From the NCBI GenBank assembly GCA_016207445.1, contig JACQPS010000220.1, positions 1 to 34,698 of the forward strand: DNA of 34,698 nt, written 5' to 3'. Below, in pieces: positions 24,504 to 27,823 of the stretch. The stretch comes from Gemmatimonadota bacterium (lineage in GTDB: Bacteria; Gemmatimonadota; Gemmatimonadetes; Longimicrobiales; RSA9). The position numbers were made by a program, and so were the translations under genes. The notes under the pieces are model-generated. The model was not told the DNA's origin. It saw nothing but the letters and a program-made list of their open reading frames with translations, and searched no databases. Each line of letters opens with the position of its first letter. Positions within the stretch are counted from its first letter, which is position 1.

Positions 24504-25964
24504 ATGGCCCGCATCGACGTCCCCATGCCCCAGATGGGCGAGTCCATCGCCGAAGGCACCGTCTCGAAGTGGCTGAAGCAGGTGGGCGACGCCGTCGCCC
24601 GCGATGAGCCGCTGCTCGAGATCTCGACCGACAAGGTGGACGCGGAGATCCCCGCGCCGGCCGCGGGCACGCTGGCCGAGATCGTGGTGGGCGAGGGGAA
24701 GACGGTCGAGGTCGGCACTGTGCTCGCTTACATCGAGACCGAGAAGGGCGCGGCCGCGAAGCCGGAGGCGAAAGCGCCCGCACCCCCGACTGCGGAGGCG
24801 CCGAAGCCCGAGGCTCCGAAAGGGGAGCCGAAGGTCGCCCCGCCGCCGGCTGCTGCGGCACAGCCGCCAGCGCCGGCCAGGCCGGTCCGGGAAGCAGCTC
24901 CCGTCGAGGCGGCGCGCCCCGCTGCGCGCCCGGCCGTCGTGGCGGCGCGCGCGGAGCCGGAGCCTCGAGGAGACGGCCGCACGGAAACCGCGGAGGAACG
25001 GCTGCGCCGCCGCTCGACGCCGCTGGTGCGCCGGATCGCCGCCGAGCACGGCGTCGACCTGACCGAGATCGAGGGCACCGGCTACGCGGGGCGTGTGACC
25101 AAGCAGGACATCCTGTCCTACCTGGAGCAGCGCGCGCGTGCGCCCGTCGTGCCGGCCCGCGCCGCGGCGCCCGCCGCCGCGCCCGTCGAGGGCGTGATCC
25201 TGGCGGATCACTTCTGGGAGATCTTCCACGGACAGGTTCGCCACCCGGAGTTCCCGGCGCGGCCGGCCGATCGGCTCGAGCCCATGGACCGCATCCGCCG
25301 GCTGACGGCGGACCACATGGTGCGCGCGAAGCGCGTGGCGCCGCACGTCCATTCCTTCATCGAGGTGGACTTCACGCAGATCGACCGCATTCGCCAGAAG
25401 AACCGCTCGAAGTGGGAGCAGCAGGGCGTGAAGGTGAGCTACACCGCCTTCGTAGCCTGGGCCGCCGCGCAGACGCTGCTCGAGTTCCCGCGCGTGAACG
25501 CGACCATCTCGGGCGAGAGTGTTCTCTTCCGCGGCGAGATCAACGTGGGCATCGCCGTGGACCTCGACCCCGGACTCATCGTGCCGGTCGTGCGCAACGC
25601 GGACGAGCTGAACGTGGTCGGGATTGCCAAACGCATCAACGACCTGGCGCAGCGCGCGCGCGAACGCAAGCTCAAGCCGGAAGAGATCCAGGGGGCGACG
25701 TTCTCCATCACGAACCCCGGCGTGCTCGGTACCCTCGTCGGCATGCCCATTATTCCGGAGGGCACGGCTGCCATTCTGGGCACGGGCGCCATCGAGAAGA
25801 AGCCGGTCGTGATGGAGCTGGACGGGACCGATGTCATCGCCATCCGCAAGCGGGCCCTCTTCTCGCTCGGCTACGACCATCGGCTGGTCGACGGCGCCGA
25901 CGCGGCCCGCTTTCTCGCGCGCCTCAAGCACGTGCTGGAGGGCTTCCCCGAGGATGGCATCTAG
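24504..25964 (+). CDS. Dihydrolipoamide acyltransferase (E2)
   Basis: Lipoyl domain EISTDKV, E3-binding TPLVRRIA...GTGYAGRVTKQD, catalytic YDHRLVDG. Confidence 0.93.
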   Translation: MARIDVPMPQMGESIAEGTVSKWLKQVGDAVARDEPLLEISTDKVDAEIPAPAAGTLAEIVVGEGKTVEVGTVLAYIETEKGAAAKPEAKAPAPPTAEAPKPEAPKGEPKVAPPPAAAAQPPAPARPVREAAPVEAARPAARPAVVAARAEPEPRGDGRTETAEERLRRRSTPLVRRIAAEHGVDLTEIEGTGYAGRVTKQDILSYLEQRARAPVVPARAAAPAAAPVEGVILADHFWEIFHGQVRHPEFPARPADRLEPMDRIRRLTADHMVRAKRVAPHVHSFIEVDFTQIDRIRQKNRSKWEQQGVKVSYTAFVAWAAAQTLLEFPRVNATISGESVLFRGEINVGIAVDLDPGLIVPVVRNADELNVVGIAKRINDLAQRARERKLKPEEIQGATFSITNPGVLGTLVGMPIIPEGTAAILGTGAIEKKPVVMELDGTDVIAIRKRALFSLGYDHRLVDGADAARFLARLKHVLEGFPEDGI

Positions 25965-26649
25965 GCAGTCCGATTCCACCAGAAGGGACGCGGGTCCCGC
26001 GCGGCTCCTGGAAGTACAACGACTGGGCCTCGTCCCTTATGGCGTGGCGCTCCAGCTCCAGGCCCGCCTGGTCGAGCAGCGCCGGGCCGGTCTCGTCCCC
26101 GACCAGTTGCTCCTGCTCGAGCACCCGCACGTCATCACGCTCGGCAGCTCGGCCCGGCAAGAGCACGTGCTGGTGGACGAGACGGAACGCCGGCTGCTGG
26201 GCATCGAGCTGCACGAGGCCGGGCGCGGCGGCGACGTCACCTACCACGGTCCTGGGCAGCTCGTCGGCTACCCGATCCTCGACCTCAAGCCCGACCGCTG
26301 CGACCTGCACCGCTACATGCGCGACCTCGAGGAGGTACTGCTACGCGCGCTCGCCGCCTTCGCCATCCGCGCCCGGCGTCGCGCAGGCTTCACCGGCGTC
26401 TGGGTCGACCACCAGAAGATCGCCGCGATCGGCGTGCGCGTCTCGAGCGGCTGGATCACCTCGCACGGCTTCGCGCTCAACGTGGCTCCACGCCTGGAGT
26501 ATTTCGGCGCCATCGTGCCGTGCGGCATCACCGACCACGGCGTCACGTCGATGGCACGCGTGCTCGGTGGACCCGTGTCGCTCGCCGAGGTCGCCGATGC
26601 ACTGGCGGAGTCCATGCTGCAAGTTTTTGATTACGGCTCGATTGCGTGA
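25954..26649 (+). CDS. lipB: Lipoyl(octanoyl) transferase
   Basis: LEHPHVITLG, RGGDVTYHGPGQLVGYPI, KIAAIG, HGFALNV, IVPCGI. Confidence 0.95.
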   Translation: MASRQSDSTRRDAGPARLLEVQRLGLVPYGVALQLQARLVEQRRAGLVPDQLLLLEHPHVITLGSSARQEHVLVDETERRLLGIELHEAGRGGDVTYHGPGQLVGYPILDLKPDRCDLHRYMRDLEEVLLRALAAFAIRARRRAGFTGVWVDHQKIAAIGVRVSSGWITSHGFALNVAPRLEYFGAIVPCGITDHGVTSMARVLGGPVSLAEVADALAESMLQVFDYGSIA

Positions 26650-26666
26650 TGGTTCGCGAATGCGTC

Positions 26667-26717
26667 CCGAAGACGGTCGAAAGAAGGCCGAAGACGGTCG
26701 AACGAAGGCCGAAAGAC
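26667..26717 (+). repeat. 21-bp direct repeat x2 plus partial
   Basis: CCGAAGACGGTCGAAAGAAGG / CCGAAGACGGTCGAACGAAGG / CCGAAAGAC, abutting a -35 box. Confidence 0.75.
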
Positions 26718-26746
26718 TTGCTGGCATTTTTCGACGCGATTACTTT
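26718..26746 (+). promoter_or_regulatory. Sigma70-type promoter of the candidate ncRNA
   Basis: TTGCTG-N17-TACTTT, nearly identical to the moaD promoter (TTGCTC-N17-TACTTT). Predicted +1 falls at the first base of hairpin 1. Confidence 0.6.
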
Positions 26747-26752
26747 CGTCCC

Positions 26753-27062
26753 GGATGCTTGAGCAAGCGGTCGAAACTCGAGCGTCCGGCCGACCGGCAA
26801 AGGGGACGCCCGCCGGGAGGCAGCTCGCAGGGTGTTCGGCCCGTGTGAGCCGGTTGCGGGGGTCGCTGGCCGCAACCGAAAGCCCCGAGAAAGCGCGAGA
26901 GCGCGAGAGAGCTCCGGGGCACCTGAGTCGTCGACCGCACGACGAGGGCAAGGGATTCGATCCGGTCACCGCACGTGGTGACGCCGAAACGACGGAACGA
27001 GTCCCGCCAGCGGGGAAAGCCCCTGAGGACGCAAGCGTGCGGCCCTCAGGGGCTTTCTTTTT
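26753..27062 (+). ncRNA. Candidate structured non-coding RNA (~310 nt), family not recognised
   Basis: Own promoter and terminator; contiguous hairpins with G-U pairs; two loop-mediated long-range complementarities; no convincing ORF. Confidence 0.6.
27015..27062 (+). terminator. Intrinsic terminator (possibly also used by convergent rnhA)
   Basis: 14-bp stem GAAAGCCCCTGAGG / CCTCAGGGGCTTTC followed by TTTTT. Confidence 0.8.
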
Positions 27063-27119
27063 CTTGTACTCTGCTGGCTGTGGGGCTGGCCGAACCGGCG
27101 CGCCGCGAGCGCGCCCGCC

Positions 27120-27713
27120 TCAGGGCAGCGGCGCCGTCGCCTGGAAGTCCTGCGCGGGCGGGGGCGCGAACTCGTAGAAATCCACGTACCGTTCCTGCTC
27201 CCGCTGCTTCTCCAGCCATTTCTCGAACCCCGAGTCCCTGAGGCCGTCCGAGCGGCTCTGCTTCTTGGCGGCGCGCACCGCCAGCCAGTTCGCGTACTCG
27301 TTCTGCGGGTGCCCCGCGTGCCCCCGGATCCAGCGCCAGTCCACCTGGTGGCGCCGCGTCGTTGCCACCAGCTCCTGCCACAGCTCCGTGTTCTCGACCG
27401 GGCCGCCCTTCCGCTTCCACCCCCGGCGGATCCACGCCGGCACCCACTCGCGCATCCCCTTGATCAGGTACTCGGAATCGGAGGTGAAGATGACGCGGCA
27501 CGGCGTCTTGAGCAGGCGCAGGCCTTCGCTCGCGCTCTGGAGCGCCATGCGGTTGTTGGTGGTGGCCGGCTCGCAGACACAGTAGTCGCGGCGCAGCCAG
27601 CGGCCGTCCTTCCAGTGCTCGATGAGTCCCGCCGCGCCGCCCGGCGAGTCGCGGTCGGTGAACTGCACGCCCAGGCACGATTCGTCGGCGTAGATCCAGA
27701 CGAGAGGGTTCAT
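27120..27713 (-). CDS. rnhA: Ribonuclease HI (atypical active site)
   Basis: IYADES, PGG, TTNNRM, TSDSEY, WIRRGWK, VENTELWQEL, WIRGHAGHPQNE. Confidence 0.88.
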   Translation of the reverse strand: MNPLVWIYADESCLGVQFTDRDSPGGAAGLIEHWKDGRWLRRDYCVCEPATTNNRMALQSASEGLRLLKTPCRVIFTSDSEYLIKGMREWVPAWIRRGWKRKGGPVENTELWQELVATTRRHQVDWRWIRGHAGHPQNEYANWLAVRAAKKQSRSDGLRDSGFEKWLEKQREQERYVDFYEFAPPPAQDFQATAPLP

Positions 27714-27823
27714 GTCGGGCAAAGGTCGACGCGTGGGTCCAGAAGCGCAAGCCGCGATCTTGCAGCGTCTGTGCAGCCAACGTAAATTGGCATCGGACTT
27801 TCGACTACAGAATCGGAGGCAGG

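What the first reader, a model, noticed from the sequence alone, without database searches (positions are those of the whole stretch)
26718..27062. Stand-alone ~310-nt structured RNA with two candidate pseudoknots between lipB and rnhA
Seen: promoter TTGCTG-N17-TACTTT places +1 at 26753, where an 11-bp stem begins (GGATGCTTGAG/CTCGAGCGTCC, two G-U pairs). Further helices follow at 26794-26816, 26823-26850, 26851-26878, 26882-26920 (GAGA tetraloop), 26927-26943 and a branched domain at 26952-27005, then a terminator. Loop 1 GCGGTCG (26767-26773) is exactly complementary to loop CGACCGC (26932-26938), a possible kissing loop. TCGCTGG in the 26860-26869 loop pairs with CCAGCGG (27007-27013). The next gene is convergent, so it is not a riboswitch leader, and RNase P, tmRNA, SRP and 6S signatures are absent. 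Inference: an independent ncRNA with tertiary structure, possibly an undescribed class.
Basis: partly seen in the sequence, partly recalled or inferred. Interest (0 to 1): 0.85.

Follow-up and report, generated by a model that had tools for sequence, protein, structure and literature searches.

The report
New knotted noncoding RNA of Gemmatimonadota
Between lipB and rnhA lies a gene for a roughly 310-base noncoding RNA, held in a compact fold by four long-range base-paired contacts, that matches no catalogued RNA family, occurs only in part of the phylum Gemmatimonadota, and has no known function.

Summary
Window 26753-27062 (+) folds far better than shuffles (z -4.95). It has a sigma-70-type promoter and an intrinsic terminator.

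It matches no Rfam 15 family, and neither do 12 homologous loci. A covariance model built from 17 relatives finds it in 61 of 73 genomes of the same family, at 1-5 copies each (3 in this genome). Further out it is found in parts of the order and in one other family of the class. Every named record that the model confirmed is titled Gemmatimonadota, Gemmatimonadales or Longimicrobiales.

On 108 distinct sequences, 68 of 74 modelled pairs show compensatory changes. I found two more: P3 loop with a conserved bulge, and P9 loop with the terminator loop.

In the two conserved gene contexts the next gene is convergent, so the RNA is not a 5' leader. RNase P, SRP and tmRNA lie elsewhere in the five genomes checked.

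Best reading: a stand-alone, trans-acting structured RNA of an undescribed class. Its function is unknown, and I think a protein- or ligand-binding scaffold most likely. No transcript data could be obtained.

The parts
26668..26713 (+). Five in-phase CGAA repeats, starting at 26668, 26678, 26689, 26699 and 26710 (10-11 bp apart), that abut the -35 hexamer. They may be an UP-element-like region or an activator binding site.
   Evidence: Read directly. The motif CGAA-N6-7-CGAA-N2-5-TTG is present upstream of 34 of 69 type-A homologues, against 0.02 expected from shuffles. It occurs only 4 times in the whole genome, and 2 of those are copies of this RNA. The function is inferred.
26718..26746 (+). 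Sigma-70-type promoter: -35 TTGCTG (26718-26723), 17-nt spacer, -10 TACTTT (26741-26746). Predicted start near 26753.
   Evidence: Sequence. TTGnnn-N16-18-TAnnnT occurs in 40 of 69 type-A homologues, against 1.04 expected, with the -10 ending 4-6 nt before the model match. Spacer sequences are not conserved. tmRNA, SRP and tRNA genes of the same genome carry similar promoters. It was not called by the simple scan, and no transcript data exist.
26753..27062 (+). The whole predicted RNA, about 310 nt.
   Evidence: Fold z-score -4.95. Model R1 scores it 223.6 bits, E 5e-58. G-U pairs are common; for example, pair 206/502 is U-G in 48 of 106 cells, which fits the + strand only.
26753..26787 (+). 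P1 hairpin (26753-26763 with 26777-26787). Its loop carries the 5' strand of PK1, GCGGUC, at 26767-26772.
   Evidence: All 7 modelled P1 pairs show compensatory changes, 87.7% paired (helix 2).
26789..26821 (+). P2 hairpin with a conserved GGGACGCC apex.
   Evidence: helices 4-6; all 7 pairs compensatory, 84-88% paired.
26823..26850 (+). P3 hairpin. Its loop UUCGG at 26835-26839 is the 5' strand of PK3.
   Evidence: helices 7-8; PK3.
26851..26878 (+). P4 hairpin. Its loop UCGCUGG at 26863-26869 is the 5' strand of PK2.
   Evidence: P4 is 95.4% paired and all 7 pairs are compensatory (helix 9). PK2 is 98.2% paired.
26882..26919 (+). P5 hairpin. The inner part (about 26891-26911, a GCGCGAGAGCGC hairpin) is an insertion specific to this copy.
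   Evidence: gap in the 16 other sequences; helix 11.
26922..26948 (+). P6: CCU (26922-26924) pairs with GGG (26946-26948) and closes a GAG bulge and the hairpin 26928-26945. The loop GACCGC at 26933-26938 is the 3' strand of PK1.
   Evidence: (helices 12-13). PK1 is 89.2% paired with 4 of 6 pairs compensatory.
26952..27005 (+). P7-P8-P9 extended hairpin. The P9 loop GCACGU at 26971-26976 is the 5' strand of PK4. The conserved bulge GCCGAAACGA lies at 26983-26992, and its CCGAA at 26984-26988 is the 3' strand of PK3.
   Evidence: (helices 14-18; P9 is 97.1% paired with 5 of 5 pairs compensatory).
27007..27013 (+). CCAGCGG, the 3' strand of PK2.
   Evidence: Five of 7 pairs are compensatory, e.g. 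GUCGUCGG/CCGACG, CACUGG/CCAGUG, UUGCUGG/CCAGCA, UCGUUGG/CCAACGA.
27015..27062 (+). P10, the intrinsic terminator (stem 27015-27057, T-run from 27058). The apical sequence GCGUGC at 27035-27040 is the 3' strand of PK4.
   Evidence: Terminator scan. Stem covariation (helices 19-20). PK4 is 91.6% paired with 6 of 6 pairs compensatory.
25831..26649 (+). Upstream gene lipB (octanoyl/lipoyl transferase). It is context only and not part of the RNA.
   Evidence: Pfam PF21948, E 5e-45. It is syntenic with the RNA in 13 loci.
27120..27722 (-). Convergent downstream gene rnhA (RNase H). It is context only.
   Evidence: Pfam PF00075, E 2e-28. It lies on the opposite strand downstream of the RNA in 12 loci.

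Best explanation
Window 26753-27062 (+) is a stand-alone gene for a highly structured noncoding RNA of about 310 nt. It belongs to a family that is not in Rfam 15 and was not found in the literature searched.

The gene is transcribed from its own sigma-70-type promoter, which is flanked by helically phased CGAA repeats, and ends at an intrinsic terminator. The RNA folds into ten helices, P1 to P10. Four long-range Watson-Crick contacts tie these together:
- PK1: L1-L6 kissing loop.
- PK2: L4 with the joiner before the terminator.
- PK3: L3 with a conserved bulge between P8 and P9.
- PK4: L9 with the apical loop of the terminator hairpin.

The terminator hairpin is therefore part of the folded body.

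The family is confined to part of the phylum Gemmatimonadota, mainly the order of this genome. It is usually single-copy, but it has been amplified to 2-5 old paralogues in this genome's family.

Inferred, not shown: the RNA acts in trans, not as a cis-regulatory leader. Most likely it is a compact scaffold that binds a protein or a small ligand, in the way orphan RNAs such as the raiA motif RNA are thought to work. It is dispensable in some species.
For: Fold and strand
- z -4.95. Frequent G-U pairs fit only the + strand.

Family
- 3 copies in the own genome.
- R1 matches in 61 of 73 genomes of the family and 51 of 101 of the order: f1 28/33, f2 20/34, f3 2/33.
- 23 of 121 of the class and 11 of 101 of the phylum sample, where the only family outside the order is f8 at 7/24.
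- 0 of 39 in family f5 under laxer filters.

Named records
- 51 of the 80 listed pattern hits in genome contigs are confirmed by R1. All 51 are titled Gemmatimonad* or Longimicrob*.
- The other 29 are not confirmed; best E 0.12.
- 0 of 80 listed viral hits are confirmed.

Structure
- 89.5% of cells paired, against 73.1% in shuffles. 68 of 74 pairs have compensatory changes, and 0 of 500 shuffles reach any measure.
- PK1, PK2 and PK3 together: 94.9% paired, 13 of 18 pairs compensatory, slid controls 24-53%.
- PK4: 91.6% paired, 6 of 6 pairs compensatory.
- None of the pseudoknots was part of the model, so the alignment was not fitted to them.

Co-loss
- Copies that lack P1 also lack the GACCGC loop. 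This holds for the G008 copies and for the g28-type copies, which carry a GAGA loop instead. In the own-genome C189 copy, both the P1 loop and the P6 loop have lost the motifs.

Independence
- The promoter pattern occurs in 40 of 69 type-A copies, against about 1 expected.
- g28-type copies have their own A-tract promoter downstream of rpmA.

Not a leader
- In both conserved contexts the next gene is convergent. One is lipB, then the RNA, then convergent rnhA (12-13 loci). The other is RNase E/G, L21, L27, then the RNA, then a convergent chorismate mutase (22-23 loci).
- All three own-genome copies also face a convergent gene.

Not coding
- The distance between the PK2 strands is 0, 1 or 2 mod 3 in 20, 45 and 37 rows.
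- The overlapping ORF has no Pfam family.

Not a known RNA
-. RNase P, SRP and tmRNA lie elsewhere in 5 of 5 genomes.
Against: - No transcript evidence: no RNA run was listed for this stretch, so the start, end and expression are all inferred.
- The simple promoter scan did not call the promoter. Only 40 of 69 type-A copies fit the strict pattern, and the own-genome copy on C189 starts about 40 nt after an upstream ORF with no recognisable promoter. Some copies may therefore be 3'-UTR-borne.
- In one genus of family f8 (g75: G156 and G268), a same-strand gene starts at or inside the 3' end of the RNA. A cis role there is not excluded.
- Gene context gives no clue to function, and no partner protein was identified.
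- Nested helices were counted on an alignment fitted to the model, which leans towards that structure.
- PK3 and PK4 were spotted by eye in the same sequences on which they were then counted.
- The sequences are related, so shuffle counts overstate significance.
- Absence from print rests on five full-text searches only. Subscription journals and supplementary files could not be seen.
Confidence: 0.72

Rival explanations
1. It is a cis-acting sensor of the riboswitch type. The fold would bind a ligand and decide whether P10 terminates, so controlling read-through into downstream DNA, for instance antisense transcription into the convergent gene.
For: The 3' strand of PK2 lies 1 nt before the terminator stem, and the terminator loop itself takes part in PK4. 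Folding and termination are therefore physically coupled. Conserved unpaired nucleotides (GAG bulge, UAAGGGA, GCCGAAACGA) resemble a binding pocket. In genus g75 a same-strand gene follows directly.
Against: The next gene is convergent in both conserved contexts, and the convergent genes differ: RNase H in one, chorismate mutase in the other. Paralogues sit in unrelated contexts and in head-to-tail clusters. No alternative antiterminator pairing was conserved among the sequences I inspected by eye (no call tested this). No Rfam riboswitch matches.
Confidence: 0.08
2. It is the functional counterpart of 6S RNA (or of Ms1), a regulator that binds RNA polymerase, in lineages where a canonical 6S RNA has been lost.
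For: RF00013 finds no 6S in 5 of 5 genomes that carry this RNA. In the class sample, 17 of 121 genomes have a 6S match (f4 13/27, f9 3/3, f3 1/3) and 23 of 121 have this RNA, with no genome in both sets. The promoter is of the stable-RNA type, and paralogues exist, as they do for 6S-1 and 6S-2.
Against: The fold is a string of hairpins tied by four tertiary helices, not a rod with a central bubble. Families f5 (0/22) and f7 (0/28) have no 6S match, and this RNA was found in 0/22 and 1/28 of them, so a missing 6S match may only reflect the weak sensitivity of the Rfam model (it rings in 4-5 of 14 control genomes). There is no shared synteny with the 6S loci of f4. The exclusivity follows family lines and is not independent evidence. 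The single f3 6S match is in an unpublished genome (G026) and scores below the cut-off.
Confidence: 0.05
3. It is a ribozyme. The conserved core formed by the four tertiary helices would be a catalytic site.
For: Its size and its density of long-range contacts are in the range of RNase P RNA or group I introns. Several unpaired nucleotides are nearly invariant.
Against: No similarity to any ribozyme family in Rfam. There is no conserved flanking substrate, host gene or exon context. The RNA is dispensable in sister species. Nothing in the data addresses chemistry.
Confidence: 0.08
4. It is a domesticated or orphaned guide or scaffold RNA of a mobile element (omega RNA of IscB or TnpB, IS110 bridge RNA, or retron RNA).
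For: Several copies per genome, some at contig ends. The RNA is pseudoknotted and about 300 nt long.
Against: No transposase, nuclease or reverse-transcriptase gene recurs next to it among 118 instances. Paralogues within one genome are only about 75% identical, so they are old. The main copy is syntenic across families. The 5' end is a stable hairpin and the 3' end a terminator, leaving no variable guide segment. HEARO and the other Rfam models do not match. None of the 80 listed viral contigs was confirmed.
Confidence: 0.03
5. It is a protein-coding region (ORF 26755-27177, 140 aa) or a chance GC-rich fold.
For: A stop-free frame spans the element here and in 102 of 108 homologues. Such frames are expected at about 68% G+C.
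Against: Indels shift the frame freely (mod-3 classes 20/45/37). There is no Pfam family. Substitutions follow base-pairing rules, including between distant loops.
Confidence: 0.01

Closest known systems
raiA motif RNA (Rfam raiA; Bacillota and Actinomycetota)
   Same: It is a stand-alone bacterial ncRNA with its own promoter and terminator. It has several stems plus two pseudoknots that form a compact core, subtypes that differ in peripheral stems, trans action, and an unknown biochemical function (passages of PMC12968392 read; PMC10861870 and PMC11706538 seen only in the search listing).
   Different: raiA is closed by a P1 stem formed from its 5' and 3' ends. Here P1 is a local hairpin, and the ends are a 5' hairpin and a terminator. 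raiA is about 200 nt, against 310 nt here. The phyla differ. This RNA has four long-range helices, not two. No raiA match appeared in the Rfam scans. raiA sits at a single locus per genome, whereas this RNA has up to 5 copies.
Large orphan bacterial RNAs (OLE, ROOL, GOLLD, HEARO)
   Same: They are lineage-restricted, highly structured, found by comparative genomics, and their function was unknown at discovery. Some of them use loop-loop contacts (abstract of PMC12286853, seen in the listing).
   Different: As I recall (no call), those RNAs are 300-800 nt or longer and often lie near phage or mobile genes. They are unrelated in sequence (no Rfam match). Whether this RNA forms oligomers is unknown.
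6S RNA (RF00013)
   Same: It is an abundant-type stable-RNA gene with its own strong promoter and sometimes has paralogues. No canonical 6S was detected in genomes that carry this RNA.
   Different: 6S is a rod with a central bubble of about 185 nt (recalled). The structure here is a multi-hairpin fold with pseudoknots. There is no model match and no shared synteny.
Riboswitch aptamers with loop-loop or pseudoknot tertiary contacts (cobalamin, lysine, SAM-I)
   Same: They use kissing loops and loop-joiner pseudoknots to close a compact fold directly before a terminator.
   Different: Those sit in 5' leaders of same-strand genes. Here the next gene is convergent. No Rfam riboswitch model matches. 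The comparison of architectures is from recall.

Membership tests
Any Rfam 15 family (4227 models) | Match to the family covariance model at or near its gathering score | tested here: not met
   There were 0 matches at gathering thresholds in the 34.7-kb window. At E<=10 on 26550-27200, only the terminator hairpin resembles ctRNA_pGA1 (22 bits against a cut-off of 45), plus two E~10 noise hits. In 12 homologous loci at E<=5, no match overlaps the element.
raiA motif RNA | Closing P1 stem formed by the 5' and 3' ends around a core of P3-P4 with PK1 and PK2 | tested here: not met
   No pairing of the two ends exists. P1 is a local hairpin at 26753-27787's start, i.e. 26753-26787, supported by 7 of 7 compensatory pairs, and the 3' end is the terminator hairpin. 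The feature list comes from passages of PMC12968392.
raiA motif RNA | Similarity to the Rfam raiA model | tested here: not met
   It was not among the matches at E<=10 or E<=5.
6S RNA | Match to RF00013; a long irregular helix with a central bubble | tested here: not met
   RF00013 gave 0 of 5 genomes, and nothing at this locus. The covariation-supported structure is ten helices plus four tertiary helices. The description of the 6S shape is recalled.
RNase P RNA, SRP RNA, tmRNA | Being the genome's copy of that housekeeping RNA | tested here: not met
   RF00010, RF00169 and RF00023 each match another place in 5 of 5 genomes, including the own genome (C126, C104, C289).
Riboswitch or other cis-regulatory 5' leader | A regulated gene directly downstream on the same strand, recurring across homologues | tested here: not met
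   The downstream neighbour is on the opposite strand in the two recurrent contexts (RNase H in 12 loci, chorismate mutase in 22 loci) and for all three own-genome copies. The exception is genus g75.
Independent sRNA/ncRNA gene | Own promoter and own terminator | tested here: inconclusive
   The promoter pattern is enriched 40-fold over shuffles, at a fixed distance. The terminator was found by scan. There are no transcript data.
Mobile-element guide RNAs (omega RNA, bridge RNA, retron msr-msd) | Adjacent IscB/TnpB/IS110/reverse-transcriptase gene and a variable guide segment | tested here: not met
   No such neighbour appears among the recurrent clusters around 118 instances. Only five type-B neighbour clusters (one representative each) and the window's four neighbours were named with Pfam. 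Both ends are conserved hairpins.

The most novel reading that the evidence does not exclude
The RNA is a new class of biochemically active RNA. One possibility is a ribozyme. The other is an RNA that assembles with itself: because covariation cannot tell pairing within one molecule from pairing between two, the 6-bp L1-L6 and L9-L10 kissing contacts could form between molecules and build a homo-oligomer, as recently seen for ROOL, GOLLD and OLE. In both cases it would be a lineage-specific cellular machine of Gemmatimonadota, with paralogues that allow mixed assemblies.
Probability: 0.15. Interest if true: 0.9.

Novelty: categorically new. Interest (0 to 1): 0.8.

Why it matters
New bacterial RNA classes of this size and structural complexity are rare. 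Past examples (RNase P, tmRNA, riboswitches, OLE, raiA, ROOL, GOLLD) each opened up new biochemistry.

This RNA has ten helices and four covariation-supported long-range helices in about 310 nt. That is an unusually constrained fold, and it should suit cryo-EM and serve as a benchmark for RNA structure prediction.

It comes from Gemmatimonadota, a widespread soil and water phylum with very few cultured members and, in the literature I could search, no described lineage-specific ncRNA.

The family also offers a natural experiment in RNA architecture. One subtype replaces the P1-P2 domain and the kissing loop with a different 5' domain and a GNRA-type loop.

As a family it is new. The general kind, an orphan structured ncRNA, is known, and no function has been shown yet.

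Tried and rejected
- Rfam at gathering and at permissive thresholds, on the window and on 12 homologous loci: nothing.
- RNAalifold proposed that GCGG of the P1 loop pairs with CCGC just before the PK2 strand. I rejected this because loops that changed to ACGG keep CCGC there, while the P6 loop changes to CCGU.
- The MFE pairings CCUG/CAGC and GGC/GCC were dropped in favour of CCU/GGG and PK2.
- Divergent housekeeping RNA: rejected.
- 6S replacement: the family-level exclusivity is noted, but there is no shared synteny and the shape is wrong. It is kept as a minor rival.
- Regulon search with the promoter motif in the own genome: 4 sites, of which 2 are the RNA itself. An exact GAAAGACTTG search gave 1 site.
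- Phage origin: 0 of 80 listed viral pattern hits were confirmed.
- Other phyla: 29 of 80 listed genome-contig hits were not confirmed. 38 further loci of that scan were never listed with titles. Some of them entered alignment A5 through nhmmer hits.
- Expression: no RNA holder was listed.
- A reversed-loop control for PK4 was uninformative, because the loops are near-palindromic (64 of 100 still reach 5 pairs).
- Stop-free frames are uninformative at this G+C content.
- My first context clustering was contaminated by wrong-frame ORFs. I redid it with a codon-position G+C filter.
- Locus of the sister species G025, which lacks the RNA: it is rearranged, with another gene facing rnhA. This was not informative.
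- Literature: five full-text searches found no description of such an RNA in Gemmatimonadota. Subscription journals and supplementary files were not seen and could hold one.
- Tools not used, for lack of a candidate protein partner: structure prediction, complex prediction, fold search, the protein homology searches and the protein atlas.

Unpublished genomes:
- G015, G018, G076 and G014 are among the genomes counted.
- G015 contributes one row to A1, A2 and model R1.
- L044 (G076), L050 (G018, two rows) and L197 (identical in score to the G015 copy) are rows of A5 and A6.
- G026 is the only f3 genome with a 6S match.
- No conclusion depends on these rows alone, apart from the 'f3 1/3' 6S count.
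Full report
**What is in the sequence**

- The promoter is TTGCTG-N17-TACTTT at 26718-26746.
- An 11-bp stem starts at 26753.
- A series of hairpins follows, then a long G+C-rich terminator hairpin at 27015-57 with a T-run.

The + strand folds to -171.4 kcal/mol against -140.4 +/- 6.3 for dinucleotide shuffles (z -4.95). The - strand also folds well (z -4.11). However, the promoter, the terminator and the many G-U pairs kept among homologues all fit the + strand only. No Rfam 15 family matches.

**A conserved family with several copies**

BLAST against the own assembly found two more copies, about 75% identical, on contigs C172 and C189. It also found matches in 16 of 41 relatives.

I aligned 17 full-length copies (A1 and A2) and projected the window's fold onto the alignment. 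I kept the pairs that at least 70% of sequences support and built covariance model R1, with 292 positions and 61 pairs.

R1 finds the RNA as follows:
- 3 copies in the own genome.
- 61 of 73 genomes of the same family, at 1-5 copies each, several in head-to-tail clusters 100-1600 nt apart.
- 51 of 101 genomes of the order: f1 28/33, f2 20/34, f3 2/33.
- 23 of 121 genomes of the class: outside the order, f8 3/8 and f7 1/28, with f4 0/27, f5 0/22 and f9 0/3.
- 11 of 101 genomes of a phylum sample, where the only family outside the order is f8 at 7/24.
- 0 of 39 genomes of family f5 under the laxer filters.

In near-complete single-contig genomes of family f2 there is one copy, or none. It is not found, even at E<=1, in the complete genome G025, whose genus-mates carry it. 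The RNA is therefore widespread in its clade but dispensable.

**Taxon**

An exact-pattern scan of one genome per species (GGTCGCTGG, a gap, CGCCAGCG, a gap, GCCCCC) returned 118 stretches, of which 80 were listed.
- R1 confirmed 51 of the 80 listed loci. All 51 are titled Gemmatimonadota, Gemmatimonadetes, Gemmatimonadales, Gemmatimonadaceae, Longimicrobiales or Longimicrobium.
- The other 29 include Streptomyces, Sphingomonas and Bordetella, plus two records labelled as Gemmatimonad. None was confirmed; best E 0.12.
- A shorter pattern in viral contigs gave 120 stretches, and 0 of the 80 listed were confirmed.

**Secondary structure**

I aligned 110 matches (108 distinct) to R1 (A5). On this alignment 89.5% of cells form standard pairs, against 73.1% after shuffling partners and 40-46% with partners slid by 1-3 columns. 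Compensatory changes occur in 68 of 74 pairs, and 0 of 500 shuffles reach any of the five measures.

One caveat applies: this alignment is fitted to the model, and the sequences are related.

**Four long-range helices**

The model contains none of these helices, so the alignment cannot have been fitted to them.

PK1 is the L1-L6 kissing loop, GCGGUC at 26767-72 with GACCGC at 26933-38.
- It is 89.2% paired, with 4 of 6 pairs compensatory.
- Variants include GCGGUU/AACCGC, ACGGUC/GACCGU, ACGGUU/AACCGU, GCGGCC/GGCCGC and ACGGGA/UCCCGU.
- Copies without P1 have also lost the GACCGC loop.

PK2 is UCGCUGG at 26863-69 with CCAGCGG at 27007-13.
- It is 98.2% paired, with 5 of 7 pairs compensatory.
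- One copy (L201) carries a double exchange, GUCGUCGG/CCGACG.

PK3 is new. The P3 loop UUCGG at 26835-39 pairs with CCGAA at 26984-88, inside the conserved 10-nt bulge GCCGAAACGA.
- It is 94.5% paired, with 4 of 5 pairs compensatory.
- Variants include CUUGA/UCAAG, UUUGG/CCAAA and UUCGA/UCGAA.

PK4 is also new. The P9 loop GCACGU at 26971-76 pairs with GCGUGC at 27035-40, at the apex of the terminator hairpin.
- On a separate MAFFT alignment of the 3' parts (A6, 100 sequences) it is 91.6% paired, with 6 of 6 pairs compensatory.
- Variants include GUGUGU/ACACGC, GCACAU/GUGUGC, GCAAGU/AUUUGC and UCACG/CGUGA.
- Each distinct L9 loop pairs with its own terminator loop over 5 or more Watson-Crick pairs in 20 of 30 cases, against 160 of 870 for foreign loops.

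I found PK3 and PK4 by eye in the same data on which they were counted, so they deserve an independent test. The alternative pairing suggested by RNAalifold for the P1 loop is not supported.

**Transcription unit**
- Among 69 type-A copies with full upstream sequence, 40 have TTGnnn-N16-18-TAnnnT, against 1.04 expected. The -10 ends 4-6 nt before the model match.
- 34 of the 69 have two or more CGAA units 10-11 bp apart abutting the -35, against 0.02 expected.
- The window has five such units in helical phase, at 26668-26713.
- That motif occurs only 4 times in the own genome, and 2 of those sites are copies of this RNA.
- tmRNA, SRP and tRNA genes of this genome have similar TTGAC-N17-TAnnnT promoters.
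- No RNA sequencing run was listed, so expression is inferred.

**Context**

With a codon-position G+C filter for ORFs, two recurrent neighbourhoods emerge around 118 distinct instances.
- E2 acyltransferase, LipB, the RNA, then convergent RNase H, then CarA. This occurs in 12-14 loci of this family and of genus g26. The window's four genes are named by Pfam.
- RNase E/G, L21, L27, the RNA, then a convergent chorismate mutase and a sodium:solute symporter. This occurs in 13-33 loci of genus g28. One representative of each cluster is named by Pfam.

All three own-genome copies face a convergent gene. Contexts in family f8 vary. In genus g75 a same-strand gene begins at the RNA's 3' end. No transposase, nuclease or RT gene recurs. 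This argues for trans action and against a 5' leader or a mobile-element RNA.

**A second architecture**

The g28-type matches looked short, at about 232 nt. In fact their upstream 155 nt or so is conserved and is preceded by its own promoter, an A-tract followed by TTGCGC-N17-TTAACGT, downstream of rpmA. These RNAs are therefore about 390 nt long. They carry a different 5' domain in place of P1-P2, and a GAGA (GNRA-type) loop on P6 in place of the kissing loop. Such exchanges of tertiary-contact type are known from other large RNAs (recalled).

**What it is not**
- RNase P, SRP and tmRNA are found elsewhere in 5 of 5 genomes.
- It is not coding. The distance between the PK2 strands falls in all three mod-3 classes (20, 45 and 37 rows), and the overlapping ORF has no Pfam family.
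- Canonical 6S is not detected in the 5 carriers tested. In the class sample, the 17 genomes with a 6S match and the 23 with this RNA do not overlap. But the split follows family lines. Families f5 and f7 have no 6S match either, and this RNA was found in 0/22 and 1/28 of them. The 6S loci share no synteny with this RNA, and the structure is unlike 6S. I keep this reading as a 5% rival.

**Comparison with known RNAs**

The nearest analogue in kind is the raiA motif RNA. It is also a stand-alone, pseudoknotted, trans-acting RNA of unknown biochemical function, with subtypes (passages of PMC12968392). It differs in several ways: a closing P1 formed by both ends, a length of about 200 nt, other phyla and a single locus. 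Its model does not match here.

Five full-text searches found nothing on such an RNA in Gemmatimonadota. Supplements and subscription journals were not visible to me.

**Verdict**

This is a real, conserved, strongly constrained RNA of a family not yet catalogued.

The mechanism is inferred. I think a trans-acting compact scaffold that binds a protein or a ligand is most likely. Lesser possibilities are ribozyme activity, self-assembly, ligand-controlled termination and a 6S-like role.

Noticed in passing
window 26668-26713: There is a 21-bp tandem duplication (CGAAGACGGTCGAAAGAAGGC, then CGAAGACGGTCGAACGAAGGC, then a partial unit). It places five CGAA units 10-11 bp apart, directly upstream of the -35. 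Other family members have two or more such units.
   Followed up: partly
G000:C172:10720-11012 (+) and G000:C189:411-690 (-): Two paralogues of the RNA lie in the same genome. The C172 copy is divergent from a response-regulator receiver gene. The C189 copy has lost both kissing-loop motifs, lacks the usual promoter, and starts about 40 nt after an ORF that follows an efflux-pump-like gene. The gene names come from my reading of the translations and were not Pfam-tested.
   Followed up: partly
L096, L134, L140, L075 and other g28-type loci (e.g. L096:5776-6340, - strand): A variant of about 390 nt has a different, conserved 5' domain of about 155 nt, its own A-tract promoter downstream of rpmA, and a GAGA loop on P6. 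The structure of that 5' domain was not worked out.
   Followed up: partly
3' tails of family-f1 copies (A2 columns 336-347): The sequence just after the terminator stem is conserved as CUUCGUACAUCC in most f1 copies in place of a plain U-run. The window copy has a U-run. This is unexplained. It may mean that the RNA ends further downstream, or that the tail has a role.
   Followed up: no
class-level genome sample: The Rfam 6S model matches only families f4, f9 and one f3 genome. It does not match f1, f2, f5, f7 or f8. The 6S RNA of most Gemmatimonadota is therefore undetected or absent.
   Followed up: partly
window 10336 (- strand) and G000:C286:1727 (-): These are the only two other places in the genome with the CGAA-N6-7-CGAA-N3-5-TTG promoter-like motif. 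What lies downstream was not examined.
   Followed up: no
L198 (G156:C2) and L217 (G268:C102): In genus g75 of family f8, a gene whose product starts with an acyl-carrier-like segment begins at or inside the 3' end of the RNA, on the same strand. This is the one context where a cis role is conceivable. The product name comes from my reading and was not Pfam-tested.
   Followed up: no
window 26891-26911: A copy-specific insertion in P5 consists of short GCGCGAGAG repeats that form an extra GAGA-capped hairpin.
   Followed up: no
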